From Acinetobacter marinus (GTDB lineage: Bacteria; Pseudomonadota; Gammaproteobacteria; Pseudomonadales; Moraxellaceae): a DNA stretch of 32,000 nt. This document shows, piece after piece, positions 1,959 through 12,519 of this stretch. The notes beneath the pieces are model-generated. The model was given only the letters and a program-made list of their open reading frames with translations, was not told the origin of the DNA and ran no database searches. The position numbers were made by a program, and so were the translations under genes. How positions within the stretch are numbered: the first letter of the stretch is position 1; each line of letters opens with the position of its first letter. The DNA lies in the NCBI RefSeq assembly GCF_900096915.1, contig NZ_FMYK01000002.1, positions 32,808-64,807 on the forward strand. Reading direction: 5' to 3'.

Positions 1959-3149
1959 ATGGCTAAGGCTAAGTTTGAACGTAATAAACCACACGTAAAC
2001 GTGGGCACGATCGGTCACGTTGACCATGGTAAAACAACTTTGACAGCAGCGATTGCAACAATCTGTGCTAAAACCTACGGTGGTGAAGCAAAAGACTACG
2101 CAGCAATCGACTCTGCACCAGAAGAAAAAGCACGTGGTATTACCATTAATACTTCACACGTAGAATACGATTCTCCTACACGTCACTACGCACACGTAGA
2201 CTGCCCAGGACACGCCGATTATGTGAAAAACATGATTACTGGTGCTGCGCAAATGGACGGTGCGATTCTTGTATGTGCTGCGACTGATGGTCCAATGCCA
2301 CAAACACGTGAACACATCCTATTGTCTCGTCAGGTTGGTGTACCATACATCCTTGTATTCTTGAACAAGTGTGACCTTGTTGATGATGAAGAATTGCTTG
2401 AACTCGTAGAAATGGAAGTACGTGAACTTCTTTCTTCTTATGACTTCCCTGGTGATGACACACCTGTTATCCGTGGTTCTGCATTGAAAGCGCTTGAAGG
2501 TGATGCGGGTCAATACGGCGAATCTGCTGTACTTGCATTGGTTGAAGCGCTTGATTCTTATATCCCAGAACCAGAGCGTGCAATTGACAAAGACTTCTTG
2601 ATGCCGATTGAAGATGTATTCTCGATTTCTGGTCGTGGTACAGTTGTTACTGGTCGTGTAGAAACTGGTATTGTTAAAGTTGGTGAAGAAGTTGAAATCG
2701 TTGGTATCAAAGATACAGCGAAAACGACTGTAACTGGCGTTGAAATGTTCCGTAAATTGCTTGACGAAGGTCGTGCAGGCGAGAACTGTGGTGTACTTCT
2801 ACGTGGTACAAAACGTGAAGAAGTACAACGTGGTCAAGTATTGGCGAAGCCAGGTACAATCAAACCGCACACTAAATTCGACGCAGAAGTATATGTACTT
2901 TCTAAAGAAGAAGGTGGTCGTCATACACCATTCCTTAACGGTTACCGTCCACAATTCTATTTCCGTACAACCGACGTCACTGGTGCGATCCAATTGCAAG
3001 ACGGCGTTGAAATGGTTATGCCAGGTGACAACGTAGAAATGTCAGTAGAATTGATCCACCCAATTGCGATGGATCCAGGTCTACGTTTTGCGATCCGTGA
3101 AGGTGGTCGTACAGTAGGTGCTGGTGTTGTTGCGAAAGTAACTGCATAA
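1959..3149 (+). CDS. tuf: Translation elongation factor Tu
   Basis: 396 aa with [14 protein letters not shown] and NKCD GTPase motifs. AGGAG-type RBS (gcgaggag) lies upstream. The position after the thr-tyr-gly-thr tRNAs matches the tufB context. Confidence 0.98.
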
Positions 3150-3212
3150 GCTACGCTGAAGTCGGTATAATAAAATTTATCAGGTCGGGAATGCGTTTCC
3201 GATCTGTATCAC

Positions 3213-3288
3213 AGGTCAGTAGTTCAATTGGTAGAGCGTCGGTCTCCAAAACCGAATGTTGGGGGTTCGAGTCCCTCCTGACCTGCCA
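3213..3288 (+). tRNA. trpT: tRNA-Trp (anticodon CCA)
   Basis: 76 nt: AGGTCAG...CTGACCT acceptor, anticodon loop CTCCAAA, GGTTCGAGTCC T-arm, CCA. Confidence 0.93.
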
Positions 3289-3398
3289 AATATAATGCTA
3301 AATAATTGATTTGAATAAATACTGATAATTTTTTATTTTTATAACCCTCATCATTACCCACATAAAAATTTGGATAGAATCAGATCAAATAGATTTGT

Positions 3399-3617
3399 TT
3401 AGGACTTTGGTCTAGTGCATTTGGTATCTCTTGTTAAATTGAGTTTCCCAGCTCCAGCTTGCAAGTTGGAATATCTGGCATTCTGCTCGGGTTGTAAATC
3501 TTGTATTTTATTTTCTACAGTTAAATTCTGAACTTGATCGGTCGGAAGCACAATGCTAGCCCATCTTGATTCCTTCCAATAATTTAATATCTGTTGCACT
3601 TCATTTGAGAATCTAAG
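3399..3617 (-). mobile_element. Decayed IS30-family left-end remnant (inverted copy of 4447-4640)
   Basis: 3534-3617 is the reverse complement of 4447-4530 (80/84 identical by manual alignment). Weaker similarity continues leftward into a degenerate copy of the transposase N-terminus (NLTVENKIQDL versus HLTLEERYQIY). Confidence 0.45.
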
Positions 3618-3633
3618 CGATTAAAAATATCAA

Positions 3634-4446
3634 TTACTGTGGTTTTTTATCGAGAATATAAGGTTGTAGCGCCTCTCGAACACGTGTTTGAATTAATTGC
3701 CAATCTTTTAAATTTACTCGTTTATAAATTACAATTGCTCTTGCTCTTGCTTTTAGCTCTGGTAAAAATAAGAACCGTTGCTCACACCCTCCTCCAAATT
3801 TATTACTATGACAATACATGATTGTAATTACATTACCATTTTCATCCTTATATACATAAAGATCTCTATTCATACCATGTCTTGATGGATTATCCAGTTT
3901 ATACTCCTGTAAGCCATAAATTTCTTTGCCTGTAGGATGATAGGCAGTAGAGCTATTTTTAGGGGCACTCATAATATTGTCCCAAGTAATATCCATACTC
4001 CCCCCCCCATAGCGCTTACCACTTTCAATACCAACACTTAACCATTTACTATCTGGTCGGTCATGTTCTGCCTGATATTGAATTTTTGAAGTTTGTGGTG
4101 CTTTATAATATCCCTCTAATAACATACCATCGCTATAGCGCATCTCAAAAGCCATCGATTTAATAATAGAATCGTAGGTTCGAGGGTGTTTTTCGTATTC
4201 TAGTCTTTCTTCTTTTGTCCCTCCCCATGTATCGGGAGAGTCGTTATACTCCCATACAATAAATATGGTTGAAGGCAACTTTACTGGTTTGCCACCTAAG
4301 TTACCTGCCCAATAAGGTAAACCATATTGGTCTTTCGGGCGTTCAAACGCTGGAGCTTGTTGCTCGGATTCAGAATGTGGTTGGCAAGCAGCCAATAATA
4401 GAAGACTGGTTGCCAATAATACGAGTTTTAGGCTTGTTTTATTCAT
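3634..4446 (-). CDS. Hypothetical lipoprotein (270 aa), family not recognised
   Basis: Lipobox signal peptide MNKTSLKLVLLATSLLLLAAC-QP. Long intact ORF whose start codon abuts the right repeat arm (4447) and whose stop lies 16 nt from the left arm (3617). Contains a G9 tract at 4000-4008. Confidence 0.7.
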   Translation of the reverse strand: MNKTSLKLVLLATSLLLLAACQPHSESEQQAPAFERPKDQYGLPYWAGNLGGKPVKLPSTIFIVWEYNDSPDTWGGTKEERLEYEKHPRTYDSIIKSMAFEMRYSDGMLLEGYYKAPQTSKIQYQAEHDRPDSKWLSVGIESGKRYGGGSMDITWDNIMSAPKNSSTAYHPTGKEIYGLQEYKLDNPSRHGMNRDLYVYKDENGNVITIMYCHSNKFGGGCEQRFLFLPELKARARAIVIYKRVNLKDWQLIQTRVREALQPYILDKKPQ

Positions 4447-4640
4447 CTTAGATTCTCAAATGAAGTGCAACAGAGATTAAATTATTGGAAGGAAGCAAGA
4501 TGAGCTAGCATTGTGCTTCCGACCGACCAAAGTCAAAATTGCATTCATGAACTATACTCATCTCACTCTTGAAGAAAGATATCAGATTTATGTTTTGTTA
4601 CGTGAAGGTTTTTCTAAGCGTCATATTGCCTCGTTTCACT
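4447..4640 (+). mobile_element. Truncated IS30-family element, left end (terminal repeat plus first ~30 codons of the transposase)
   Basis: The terminal motif CAAATGAAGTGCAACAG (4457-4473) resembles, from memory, IS30/ISAba125-type inverted repeats. It is followed by a transposase HTH fragment. Confidence 0.55.
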
Positions 4641-4696
4641 GCTGTGCGGTGGGAATCTTGCAAAATATATTTTTCATGGTTGATGTGTGGATTTGA
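4547..4696 (+). pseudogene. IS30-family transposase, N-terminal HTH fragment only
   Basis: MNYTHLTLEERYQIYVLLREGFSKRHIA matches the conserved N-terminal HTH of IS30-family transposases. Similarity is lost after about 30 aa, with a stop at 61 aa and no DDE domain. Confidence 0.6.
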
Positions 4697-4846
4697 GTGG
4701 AGATTCGTTAGGAATAGGCTATCGATAGTCTGGCATTTCGACTGTGTTTTCTTATTTTGATTCGAGTCTTTACCAGCTTGTTTAATAGGTTTCAAAGATC
4801 TGATTTATTTAAAATTCTTATTTTTTGGCATTGCCATCCTAAAATG

Positions 4847-4879
4847 AAAAAAGCCCATATCAATAGATATGGGCTTTTT
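4847..4879 (-). terminator. Rho-independent terminator, presumed original terminator of the tRNA-Glu operon
   Basis: Stem AGCCCATAT/ATATGGGCT with a 6-nt loop, flanked by A and T runs. It lies directly 3' (minus strand) of the tRNA-Glu 3' fragment. Confidence 0.7.
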
Positions 4880-4931
4880 AGAATTTGGCGTCCCTACGGG
4901 GATTCGAACCCCGGTTACCGCCGTGAAAGGG
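4880..4931 (-). repeat. attL: displaced 3' 46 nt of tRNA-Glu plus 6 nt downstream; direct repeat of 12457-12508
   Basis: agaatt+TGGCGTCCCTACGGGGATTCGAACCCCGGTTACCGCCGTGAAAGGG is identical at both sites. Sequence diverges after the core (ggcgtgatcg versus cgatgtcct). Confidence 0.9.
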
Positions 4932-4946
4932 GCGTGATCGAGTTGC

Positions 4947-5801
4947 TTAATAGTTTTGTAAACTTTTGTAATTTTGCGTTAAAATTGGCAGGGCGTTTAA
5001 ACATTCGTGCAAATTATCAGGCGCTAAGTGCGCATAGCATTGTGTTATGCGTGTATCTGAATGCCCCAGCAATTGTGAAACGTGGTAAAGCGGTACACCC
5101 TGTTTTATTAGAAAACTTGCAAAAGTGTGGCGTAAGTCATGGATTCTAACTTTGCCAATATCGGCACGTTCAACAGCACTAGAGAATCGTTTATAGAATG
5201 TTCTATAGTGATCATCGGTTTTTTCATTGTAAAACACCCATTTTTTGTGGTTTCTCATTCTGAGTAGGGCAGTAATTGCAGAATCATTTAGCGGTTTATA
5301 AACAGTCTTTTCATTCTTAGAAAGTGAATTTCTAACTATTAAATAACGATCATTTAAATAGACATTGTCCCAAGTCAATTTAAGCAGCTCACCCGACCTA
5401 CACCCTGTATTCAATAGCAGCAATATATAATCATGTAGGTAAAAATTACCGAATCGTTTTGACTCAGTGAGAAGTTTTGAACATTCCGAAGCATTCAAAA
5501 ATCGTGGGATGTAATCATCTTCAAAAAGTCGAAATCCATTAAATCTGTTTTTAAAATTCGCATCGTCTTTGTGTTTTAAGTAGTAATTGAATGCCGAGCG
5601 AATAACATTTAATTCCCGATTGATTGTACTATTCTTTACCCCAGAAGATCGGCGATACAATACATATTGATGCAAGATTTCAATTGTGATTTCATCGAAT
5701 TGATAAAAATATTCCAAGTGTTTAAATTTTTCTAAGTATTCATGATCAGATTCAAACAAGCCATTAATTGCATAAAATTTCAGAATTTTTTTAATATCCA
5801 T
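4947..5801 (-). CDS. int: Tyrosine recombinase / phage integrase (284 aa)
   Basis: Catalytic signature is present: TGCRSGE (Arg), HDLRHTFAS (H-x-x-R), LLGHSD (His), TQCYAHL (Tyr). The stop lies 15 nt from the att core. Confidence 0.88.
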   Translation of the reverse strand: MDIKKILKFYAINGLFESDHEYLEKFKHLEYFYQFDEITIEILHQYVLYRRSSGVKNSTINRELNVIRSAFNYYLKHKDDANFKNRFNGFRLFEDDYIPRFLNASECSKLLTESKRFGNFYLHDYILLLLNTGCRSGELLKLTWDNVYLNDRYLIVRNSLSKNEKTVYKPLNDSAITALLRMRNHKKWVFYNEKTDDHYRTFYKRFSSAVERADIGKVRIHDLRHTFASFLIKQGVPLYHVSQLLGHSDTRITQCYAHLAPDNLHECLNALPILTQNYKSLQNY

Positions 5802-12222: not shown

Positions 12223-12519
12223 ATGAATAAAGAGCTAGTTGATCTGATTGATCGTGCAAGATGGAAAGCAGGAAGCTATAAAGCTGTAGCAGAAAAGATG
12301 GGAATTACAGCAGGAAGATTATCGGATTTTAAACATGGCAATAGAACGCCATCGACATTAAATATTTGTCAACTTGCTGATATTGCTGAACTAAATGTAG
12401 CAGAAACTTTGTTTCAGATATTAGAAAAGCTCGACACTGATCATGCCGAGCTTTGGAGAATTTGGCGTCCCTACGGGGATTCGAACCCCGGTTACCGCCG
12501 TGAAAGGGCGATGTCCTAG
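12223..12519 (+). CDS. HTH (Cro/CI-type) phage repressor; last ~20 codons read into the tRNA-Glu/att core
   Basis: The HTH-like segment SYKAVAEKMGITAGRLSDFKHG, an AGAGGG RBS, and divergent orientation to the rep operon. The C-terminus WRPYGDSNPGYRRERAMS is encoded by tRNA sequence. Confidence 0.6.
   Translation: MNKELVDLIDRARWKAGSYKAVAEKMGITAGRLSDFKHGNRTPSTLNICQLADIAELNVAETLFQILEKLDTDHAELWRIWRPYGDSNPGYRRERAMS

What the first reader, a model, noticed from the sequence alone, without database searches (positions are those of the whole stretch)
3534..4530. Lipoprotein gene fitted exactly between two 84-bp inverted copies of an IS30-like left end
3534-3617 is the reverse complement of 4447-4530 (80/84 matches by manual alignment). 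The arms point outward and each continues into a decayed IS30-type transposase N-terminus. On the right this is MNYTHLTLEERYQIY...; on the left it is only a degenerate echo. The 270-aa lipoprotein ORF occupies the 829-bp interior almost exactly: its ATG touches the right arm and its stop is 16 nt from the left arm. Its RBS and promoter must therefore lie inside the repeat. This IRL-gene-IRL geometry is not a normal composite transposon. It could be the relic of an IS30 dimer or inversion event, an IS-end-driven expression cassette, or an invertible segment. A small tyrosine recombinase gene sits only about 400 bp to the right, although it is more simply explained as the phage integrase.
Basis: seen in the sequence. 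Interest (0 to 1): 0.65.

Follow-up and report, generated by a model that had tools for sequence, protein, structure and literature searches.

The report
IS remnants bracket orphan immunity-type lipoprotein
Two broken, mirror-image left ends of a common Acinetobacter jumping gene (IS30 family) sit tightly on either side of a lone lipoprotein gene; the gene resembles a toxin-immunity protein, and the arrangement looks like an ordinary transposition relic, not a genetic switch.

Summary
The inverted repeat is real: 3524-3617 and 4447-4540, 94 nt, 87/94 matching, 829 bp apart.

Both arms start exactly at nucleotide 1 of a 1048-bp IS30-family element. That element has 26-bp IRs, a 315-aa transposase and 3-bp target duplications, and is multicopy in 63 of 247 Acinetobacter species. 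No intact copy remains in this genome. The right remnant keeps IS nt 1-183 (28 transposase codons). The left keeps nt 1-~94, and the proposed "transposase echo" on the left is not supported.

The arms share a substitution (T67G) seen in none of 22 other copies, so they are probably sister copies.

The 270-aa lipoprotein belongs to the Smlt3025/FrpD family, which binds or neutralises the N-domain of RTX-type effectors. Relatives sit directly upstream of such an RTX gene. Here one IS end cuts the spacer 16 nt after the stop and the other abuts the ATG. No effector homologue was found in the genome.

Both junctions resemble the element's preferred T-rich target. Inverted flanking IS copies with like ends inward are normal composite-transposon geometry.

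The most likely reading is a decayed, immobile composite or inversion relic carrying an orphan immunity-type gene.

The parts
3213..3288 (+). tRNA-Trp(CCA). It is the last conserved gene before the locus; in relatives secE follows about 75 nt later.
   Evidence: ARAGORN; nine related Acinetobacter species have secE-nusG directly downstream
3289..3523 (.). AT-rich flank (30% GC) of unknown origin that replaces the rest of the left IS copy. It is not IS-derived and has no homologue elsewhere.
3524..3617 (-). Left IS30-family remnant: IS nt 1 to about 94 (the 26-bp IRL is 3592-3617, with the terminus at 3617 facing the gene). It carries 7 changes relative to the right arm.
3618..3633 (-). 16 nt of native spacer after the lipoprotein stop codon. 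It is homologous to the start of the 28-nt lipoprotein-to-RTX-gene spacer in the closest homologue (L068). The IS junction reads TATTTTTAA|TCG.
3634..4446 (-). Orphan lipoprotein gene, 270 aa, lipobox LLAAC with Cys20, Smlt3025/FrpD-type fold, 37.8% GC against 43.3% for the genome.
4000..4008 (-). G9 tract on the coding strand (codons GGG GGG GGG). It is the only G/C homopolymer of 9 nt or more in the 3.0-Mb genome.
4447..4629 (+). Right IS30-family remnant: IS nt 1-183 (26-bp IRL 4447-4472; transposase ATG at 4547; 28 codons of the HTH domain). It is cut off at 4629/4630. The junction with the gene reads TGTTTTATT|CAT, so CAT/ATG is the likely 3-bp target duplication.
4630..4840 (.). Flank of unknown origin that replaces the rest of the right IS copy. 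It holds a weak promoter-like site on the minus strand (4691-4664).
4848..4879 (-). Intrinsic terminator hairpin downstream of the tRNA-Glu operon.
4880..4931 (-). 52-nt copy of the tRNA-Glu 3' part, which is attL of the filamentous prophage. It is identical to 12457-12508.
4947..5801 (-). Prophage tyrosine integrase (Phage_integrase, E 6.5e-31). It is not connected to the IS arms.

Best explanation
The locus is a fossil of IS30-family transposition around a single cargo gene.

What is shown:
- The arms are the first 94 and 183 nt of two inverted copies of one 1048-bp IS30-family element.
- That element is common in Acinetobacter but has no intact copy in this genome.
- The termini of both copies face the 829-bp interior.
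- The interior holds only a Smlt3025/FrpD-type lipoprotein gene.
- In relatives this gene is the upstream partner of an RTX protein whose N-domain is Smlt3024-like, next to type I secretion genes. Here no effector homologue was found in the genome.

What is inferred:
- The element inserted on each side of the gene at its preferred T-rich, AT-rich target. One insertion duplicated the ATG. The other landed in the short spacer before the effector gene.
- This produced a composite-transposon-like unit, IS(inverted)-lipoprotein-IS. The alternative route is one insertion followed by an IS30-type intramolecular inversion that made the inverted sister copy.
- The unit carried or kept the immunity-type gene without its toxin, in a region where the conserved tRNA-Trp/secE junction is broken.
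- Later deletions removed everything but the inner ends of both IS copies. The structure can no longer move.

Consequences:
- The gene now depends on IS-derived or flanking sequence for transcription, and on a weak GAGA Shine-Dalgarno motif in the IRL for translation.
- It is not a programmed invertible switch.
For: - Inverted repeat: 94 nt, 87/94 matching.
- IS terminus: every match of the right arm in 63 of 247 Acinetobacter species starts at window position 4447, which is IS nt 1. Most end at nt 183, where the window copy breaks off.
- Full element: 1048 bp, 26-bp IRs, 315-aa IS30-type transposase. Most of 17 full copies with both flanks show a clear 3-bp target duplication, and the target is TTTTTT(A/T)A-NNN, roughly palindromic.
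- Own genome: only the two arms plus one 29-nt IRL-like scrap.
- Sister copies: both arms share T67G (and G92A), absent from 22 other copies.
- Target fit: the window junctions TGTTTTATT|CAT and TATTTTTAA|TCG score in the top 6% and 1.9% of positions on contig C9 under the target matrix.
- Same geometry elsewhere: the same IRL-inward arrangement surrounds a guaA segment in G247.
- Lipoprotein family: NCBIfam NF050129 (Smlt3025 family) hits 10 of 22 family members, best E 2e-10. A profile of the family hits PDB 6PDK at E 8e-5.
- Lipoprotein fold: the AlphaFold model (pLDDT 83) has 6PDK (E 4e-9, TM 0.52/0.56) and FrpD 5EDF (E 8e-5) as its only significant Foldseek hits.
- Context of homologues: HlyD, a 253-aa protein, the lipoprotein, then an RTX protein with a weak collinear Smlt3024 hit. 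The closest homologue has an MNTRETLTIIQIQ... gene 28 nt downstream.
- Orphan status: no RTX N-domain, 253-aa or LRAT-like partner is found in the own genome.
- Published behaviour: IS30 makes deletions, inversions and truncated copies, and prefers near-palindromic hot spots (PMC9333248).
Against: - The outer parts of both IS copies are gone and the flanks (3289-3523, 4630-4840) match nothing. Target duplications therefore cannot be checked, so two insertions, a composite move and a replicative inversion cannot be told apart.
- The structure was found nowhere else: two metagenome scans and one genome scan for the junctions gave nothing. Nine of the closest lipoprotein homologues, on metagenome contigs, were checked and lack the arms. 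No donor or intermediate is known.
- The target-matrix scores are only moderately good. C at the first position of the target duplication was not seen among 34 half-sites.
- No convincing outward sigma-70 promoter lies in the arm. The best candidate is TTGACT-15-CACAAT. Expression of the gene is therefore unproven.
- Immunity function is inferred from family membership and gene context only.
Confidence: 0.7

Rival explanations
1. One insertion plus an IS30-type intramolecular (replicative) inversion. A single IS copy next to the gene attacked a target 829 bp away on the same molecule. This created the inverted sister copy and flipped the gene. Both copies were truncated later. No composite transposon ever moved.
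For: The arms share a private substitution, so one may derive from the other. IS30 produces inversions and incomplete copies through its IR-IR junction intermediates (PMC9333248). The locus coincides with a break of the otherwise conserved tRNA-Trp/secE junction.
Against: It gives the same end product as the composite model, and the diagnostic target duplications on the outer sides are deleted. It also does not explain how a gene normally paired with an RTX effector came to lie beside tRNA-Trp in a genome where no partner homologue was found.
Confidence: 0.2
2. IS-end-driven expression cassette. The right remnant has been kept by selection because it supplies the promoter and/or ribosome-binding site of the lipoprotein gene, as the ISAba125 remnant does for blaNDM-1.
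For: The native upstream region is entirely replaced, because the IS terminus touches the ATG. The ORF is still intact and full length relative to homologues. In nt 1-94 the right arm has no private change while the left has 7. Three of those 7 destroy a TTGACT hexamer that the right arm and the IS consensus keep. There is precedent for an IS30-family remnant carrying a -35 box (PMC4569734).
Against: The consensus scan finds no promoter inside the arm at its threshold. The best candidate has a 15-nt spacer and a poor -10. The Shine-Dalgarno motif is weak (GAGA). If 7 of the substitutions fall in the left arm and 0 in the right, that is suggestive only (about p 0.02, and not significant over the first 84 nt).
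Confidence: 0.3
3. Invertible ON/OFF segment. Recombination between the 94-nt arms flips the gene. In the flipped state it would run in the same direction as the strong tuf-tRNA-Trp transcription instead of against it.
For: The arms are long enough for RecA-dependent inversion. No terminator was predicted on the plus strand between tRNA-Trp and the gene, so read-through would currently be antisense to the gene. A tyrosine recombinase gene lies 500 bp away.
Against: That recombinase is the integrase of the filamentous prophage, with its own att sites in tRNA-Glu. The arms are IS ends, not recombinase sites. No transposase of this IS is left in the genome. The arms have diverged by 7%, which argues against frequent exchange. 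The one other assembly with the locus (a Logan contig) shows the same orientation.
Confidence: 0.04
4. The arms are a common intergenic repeat or a chance palindrome unrelated to any IS.
For: None beyond the AT-richness of the region.
Against: The arms match full 1048-bp transposase-bearing elements from nt 1 at 82-96% identity in dozens of species, and match plasmid genes annotated as IS30-family transposase.
Confidence: 0.01

Closest known systems
Composite transposons bounded by inverted IS copies (Tn5 and Tn10 type; in the IS30 family, Tn125 = ISAba125-blaNDM-1-ISAba125)
   Same: Two copies of one IS flank a short cargo. With inverted copies the two inner ends are of the same kind, as here (IRL-gene-IRL). 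The cargo is a single accessory gene of lower GC than the genome.
   Different: Both IS copies are reduced to 94 and 183 nt. There are no outer ends, no transposase and no detectable target duplications, so it is not a functional transposon. Tn125 has direct, not inverted, copies (own knowledge).
Truncated ISAba125 remnant upstream of blaNDM-1 (PMC4569734)
   Same: A short terminal piece of an Acinetobacter IS30-family element persists directly upstream of an acquired gene after the rest of the IS has been lost. It has replaced the gene's native upstream region.
   Different: In the NDM case the remnant's promoter role has been reported. Here no good outward promoter is evident and expression is untested. 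A second, inverted remnant also lies downstream.
E. coli IS30 rearrangement pathways (IS dimers, hot-spot and IR targeting, deletions and inversions; PMC9333248)
   Same: The family is the same: an N-terminal HTH transposase, terminal IRs of about 26 bp, short target duplications and a preference for near-palindromic targets. Known products include inversions and incomplete IS copies.
   Different: The element here is 1048 bp with a 3-bp duplication (IS30 is 1221 bp with 2 bp, own knowledge). Its transposition chemistry was not tested. No IR-IR junction is present.
Smlt3025 (immunity protein of the Stenotrophomonas X-T4SS effector Smlt3024; PDB 6PDK) and FrpD of Neisseria meningitidis (binds the N-domain of the RTX protein FrpC; PDB 5EDF); PMC6759196
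   Same: It is a lipoprotein of similar size. These two are the only significant fold matches. There are weak but collinear profile hits. Acinetobacter homologues lie directly upstream of an RTX protein with a Smlt3024-like N-domain beside type I secretion genes.
   Different: Sequence identity is only 10-13%. No partner effector homologue was found in this genome. Neither binding nor protection has been shown.
Orphan immunity genes carried by mobile elements (as described for type VI secretion immunity islands; own knowledge)
   Same: An immunity-type gene is present without its toxin, has foreign base composition and is flanked by mobile-element debris.
   Different: It is a single gene, not an array. 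It belongs to an RTX/T1SS- or T4SS-linked family, not a T6SS one. Any protective role is untested.

Membership tests
IS30 family insertion sequence (the arms as its left ends) | The sequence matches transposase-bearing elements from their terminal nucleotide onward. | tested here: met
   Matches in 63 of 247 species all start at 4447 = IS nt 1. The full copy is 1048 bp.
IS30 family insertion sequence (the arms as its left ends) | Terminal inverted repeats of about 20-30 bp and a short (2-3 bp) target duplication. | tested here: met
   26-bp IRs (22/26 matching). Most of 17 full copies with both flanks show a clear 3-bp duplication. This was shown for the parental element, not for the two remnants, whose outer ends are missing.
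IS30 family insertion sequence (the arms as its left ends) | A transposase with an N-terminal HTH and an IS30-type DDE domain. | tested here: inconclusive
   The window keeps only residues 1-28 (HTH_38, E 3e-7). The plasmid homologue is annotated as an IS30 family transposase. The DDE domain of the 315-aa protein was not scanned.
Functional composite transposon | Two IS copies, at least one with an intact transposase and intact outer ends. | tested here: not met
   Only nt 1-94 and nt 1-183 remain. No other part of the IS is in the genome.
Functional composite transposon | A direct target duplication flanking the whole unit. | not testable with these tools
   The outer ends are deleted and the flanks are of unknown origin.
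Programmed invertible DNA switch (invertase or tyrosine-recombinase type) | A dedicated recombinase acting on the inverted repeats. | tested here: not met
   The only nearby recombinase is the prophage integrase with tRNA-Glu att sites. The arms are IS ends.
Programmed invertible DNA switch (invertase or tyrosine-recombinase type) | Both orientations present in a population. | not testable with these tools
The one other assembly with the locus has the same orientation.
Smlt3025/FrpD-type lipoprotein (effector-binding or immunity) | A lipoprotein signal peptide with a lipobox cysteine. | tested here: met
   MNKTSLKLVLLATSLLLLAAC, read directly from the sequence. Cys20 is nearly invariant in the family alignment.
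Smlt3025/FrpD-type lipoprotein (effector-binding or immunity) | The fold of 6PDK and 5EDF: a central antiparallel sheet with a C-terminal helix. | tested here: met
   Foldseek gives 6PDK at E 4e-9 (TM 0.52/0.56) and 5EDF at E 8e-5, and no other significant hit. The model has pLDDT 83.
Smlt3025/FrpD-type lipoprotein (effector-binding or immunity) | The sequence reaches the curated family threshold (NF050129, 500 bits). | tested here: not met
   21 bits for this protein. 10 of 22 relatives hit, best E 2e-10. It is a distant relative, not an equivalog.
Smlt3025/FrpD-type lipoprotein (effector-binding or immunity) | Encoded next to a Smlt3024-like or RTX partner. | tested here: not met
   This is met in Acinetobacter homologues. 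In this genome the partner position is occupied by the left IS end, and no homologue exists elsewhere. Hence 'orphan'.

The most novel reading that the evidence does not exclude
The two IS ends may be the fossil of an IS30-family composite transposon whose only cargo was a toxin-less Smlt3025/FrpD-type immunity gene. That would be a direct footprint of IS-mediated trafficking of orphan immunity genes against RTX/T1SS- or T4SS-delivered effectors between Acinetobacter species. In addition, if both retained arms are transcribed together they would form a 91-bp duplex between the 5' and 3' untranslated regions (about -149 kcal/mol) ending at the start codon. Expression would then be gated by RNase III, by antisense read-through from tuf-tRNA-Trp, or by rare RecA-dependent inversion.
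Probability: 0.15. Interest if true: 0.5.

Novelty: new member of a known kind. Interest (0 to 1): 0.3.

Why it matters
- The tight fit that looked strange has an ordinary cause. This IS prefers T-rich, AT-rich, near-palindromic targets, which are the kind of sequence found at start-codon spacers and short intergenic gaps.
- It records a plausible route by which a bacterium keeps or gains an immunity-type gene without the matching toxin. This bears on how resistance to interbacterial toxins spreads.
- It assigns a fold and a likely role to a lipoprotein family with no Pfam match that is scattered through Acinetobacter (21 of 201 species).
- It marks a break in the otherwise conserved tuf-tRNA-Trp-secE junction.

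None of this changes current understanding of IS30 elements or of immunity proteins.

Tried and rejected
1. Transposase 'echo' left of the left arm. tblastn of the 315-aa transposase with word size 2 and E up to 100 found only residues 1-28, on the right. Rejected.
2. A second, divergent IS variant sharing only the first 95 nt. A genus-wide search with 3289-3560 found no multicopy match beyond the arm. Rejected.
3. Origin of the flanks 3289-3523 and 4630-4840. Searches in 40 relatives, the whole genus, plasmids and the own genome gave only AT-rich chance matches, the terminator and the tRNA piece. Unresolved.
4. The same junctions elsewhere. Exact-pattern scans of metagenome contigs (twice) and genome contigs found nothing.
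5. IS arms around the closest lipoprotein homologues (53-63% identity, short contigs). These are metagenome contigs with native upstream regions and no IS sequence. The short contigs are therefore not caused by IS repeats.
6. Reconstructing the rearrangement partner. The genes upstream of secE in the own genome (C13) are not conserved in relatives, and no IS scrap lies there. No simple reciprocal inversion could be shown.
8. Pfam on the lipoprotein gave no family. The identification came from NCBIfam, the PDB profile search and the fold search.

Full report
**Observation**

Its layout is trpE, four tRNAs, tuf (1959-3149) and tRNA-Trp (3213-3288). The locus in question follows, then a filamentous prophage integrated in tRNA-Glu.

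The repeat finder reports one strong inverted pair: 3524-3617 and 4447-4540, 94 nt, 93% complementary, 829 nt apart. The match runs 10 nt further with three more mismatches.

The 270-aa ORF (3634-4446, minus strand) fills the interior. Its ATG abuts the right arm and its stop lies 16 nt from the left arm.

**What the arms are**

- The right arm and the 90 nt after it match plasmid genes annotated as IS30-family transposase.
- Across the genus, 63 of 247 species carry matches, usually several per genome. These matches start at window position 4447, and most stop at query position 183, where the window copy breaks off.
- A full copy (G092) is 1048 bp. It has 26-bp terminal inverted repeats (CTTAGATTCTCAAATGAAGTGCAACA at the left end) and one 315-aa ORF beginning MNYTHLTLEERYQIY.
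- Most of the 17 full copies with both flanks show a clear 3-bp target duplication inside a T-rich/A-rich, roughly palindromic target, TTTTTT(A/T)A-NNN-T(A/T)AAAAAA.

So 4447 and 3617 are true IS termini. Both point at the gene. The right remnant is IS nt 1-183 (28 transposase codons; HTH_38). The left remnant is IS nt 1 to about 94.

The own genome holds no other piece of this IS except a 29-nt IRL-like scrap 470 kb away. No intact copy of the element remains in this genome.

Both arms carry T67G (and G92A), which none of 22 other copies has. They are therefore probably sister copies, not unrelated insertions of different variants. The left arm has 7 further private changes in 94 nt and the right arm none.

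**What the gene is**

- The protein has a classical lipoprotein signal (…LLLLAAC) and no Pfam match.
- Homologues occur in 21 of 201 Acinetobacter species at 41% identity or less, sometimes in tandem. Metagenome contigs hold homologues at 53-63% identity.
- NCBIfam NF050129 (Smlt3025 family) hits 10 of 22 family members, best E 2e-10. This protein scores only 21 bits, far below the curated cut-off.
- A profile of the family finds PDB 6PDK at E 8e-5.
- An AlphaFold model (pLDDT 83, pTM 0.78) has two significant Foldseek matches and no others: 6PDK, the Smlt3025 immunity protein (E 4e-9, TM 0.52/0.56), and 5EDF, FrpD (E 8e-5).

According to PMC6759196, Smlt3025 neutralises the effector Smlt3024. 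Homologues of Smlt3024 form the N-terminal domains of RTX proteins in many genera, including Acinetobacter. FrpD binds the N-domain of the RTX protein FrpC.

This fits the gene context of the Acinetobacter homologues. The order there is HlyD, a 253-aa protein, the lipoprotein, then an RTX-repeat protein with a weak collinear Smlt3024 hit.

In the closest homologue (L068) a gene starting MNTRETLTIIQIQ… begins 28 nt after the lipoprotein stop. The first 16 nt of that spacer are still recognisable in the window, up to the point where the left IS end cuts in.

The own genome has no homologue of the RTX N-domain, of the 253-aa protein or of an LRAT-like neighbour. The gene is therefore an orphan member of an effector-binding or immunity lipoprotein family. 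Its GC content is 37.8%, against 43.3% for the genome. Any immunity function is inferred, not shown.

**Why the fit is so tight**

In IS orientation the two junctions read TGTTTTATT|CAT and TATTTTTAA|TCG. Both have the T-run followed by A/T that this element prefers. Under a matrix built from 34 half-sites they score in the top 6% and 1.9% of positions on contig C9. This is supportive, not decisive.

On this reading the start codon itself (CAT/ATG) was the 3-bp target duplication. That would explain why the ORF survived intact while its native Shine-Dalgarno motif (GGGG in homologues) was replaced by IS sequence carrying only a weak GAGA.

**Geometry**

It is the Tn5/Tn10 arrangement (own knowledge). 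The same element brackets a 2.45-kb guaA segment in the same way in another species.

IS30 itself is documented to generate inversions, deletions and incomplete copies through its IR-IR junction intermediates, and to prefer near-palindromic hot spots (PMC9333248).

The most likely history is therefore a composite-like unit, or an insertion followed by intramolecular inversion, whose IS copies were later deleted down to their inner ends. The outer ends and target duplications are gone and the flanks match nothing. These variants cannot be separated.

**Setting**

In nine related Acinetobacter species secE-nusG follows tRNA-Trp after about 75 nt. In this genome secE-nusG lies on another contig, and its upstream region is conserved only from the -10 box onward. 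The IS relic thus sits at a genuine rearrangement breakpoint. I could not reconstruct the partner breakpoint.

**Switch hypothesis**

- The nearby tyrosine recombinase is the prophage integrase. It lies beside a 52-nt attL copy of tRNA-Glu that is identical to 12457-12508.
- No transposase for the arms remains in the genome.
- The arms have diverged by 7%.
- The only other assembly holding the locus (a Logan contig from SRR4236227, 100% identical over 3121-4909) has the same orientation.

I put the switch hypothesis at about 4%.

**Expression**

No good outward promoter lies in the right arm. The best candidates are TTGACT-15-CACAAT inside the arm and TCCACA-16-TATATT at 4691-4664 outside it. 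Three of the left arm's private changes destroy the TTGACT hexamer that the right arm and the IS consensus keep. This is a hint that the right remnant is under constraint, but the numbers are small.

If both arms were on one transcript they would form a 91-bp duplex (about -149 kcal/mol) ending at the AUG. That is a physical consequence; whether it has any function is unknown.

**Verdict**

The feature is real and well defined. Its parts belong to known kinds: IS30-family remnants around an orphan Smlt3025/FrpD-type lipoprotein gene. It is ordinary in mechanism and modestly interesting as a case of an immunity-type gene isolated from its toxin by insertion sequences.

Noticed in passing
window 4000-4008: The G9 tract on the coding strand of the lipoprotein gene (GGG GGG GGG, where homologues have G-T/A/V-G) is the only G/C homopolymer of 9 nt or more in the whole 3.0-Mb genome. 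It is a candidate slipped-strand phase-variation site. It is in frame in both assemblies that hold it.
   Followed up: partly
window 3288-3340, and own genome C13:131016-131070: The conserved tRNA-Trp/secE junction (secE about 75 nt after tRNA-Trp in nine relatives) is broken here. secE-nusG lies on contig C13 behind non-conserved genes. Only the -10 box and leader of the secE promoter are retained there.
   Followed up: partly
own genome C9:505130-505158 (outside the window): A 29-nt IRL-like scrap of the same IS (93% to IS nt 4-32) lies about 13 nt upstream of the ATG of a gene I read by eye as isomerase-like (MLNLAVNLSLIFHEMPLIERF...), in the same orientation as that gene. It may be a third, older remnant of the element.
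   Followed up: no
L010, L009, L011 (other Acinetobacter species): There is a conserved cassette: HlyD-type protein, an uncharacterised 253-aa protein (no NCBIfam family), the Smlt3025/FrpD-like lipoprotein (sometimes two or three paralogues), then an RTX protein with a Smlt3024-like N-domain. It looks like a T1SS-linked effector/immunity locus that has not been described for Acinetobacter in the paper read.
   Followed up: partly
L069/L070 (metagenome contigs): In some close homologues the gene after the lipoprotein is a 195-aa protein with a weak LRAT/NlpC-P60 hit instead of an RTX protein. The lipoprotein family may therefore pair with more than one effector type.
   Followed up: no
window 3150-4446, plus strand: No intrinsic terminator was predicted on the plus strand after tRNA-Trp. 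Read-through from the tuf-tRNA-Trp operon would be antisense to the lipoprotein gene.
   Followed up: no
L073 (G247:C11, 2820 bp): The whole contig is a guaA plus small periplasmic protein segment bounded on both sides by left ends of the same IS facing inward. It is a live example of the geometry seen as a relic in the window.
   Followed up: yes
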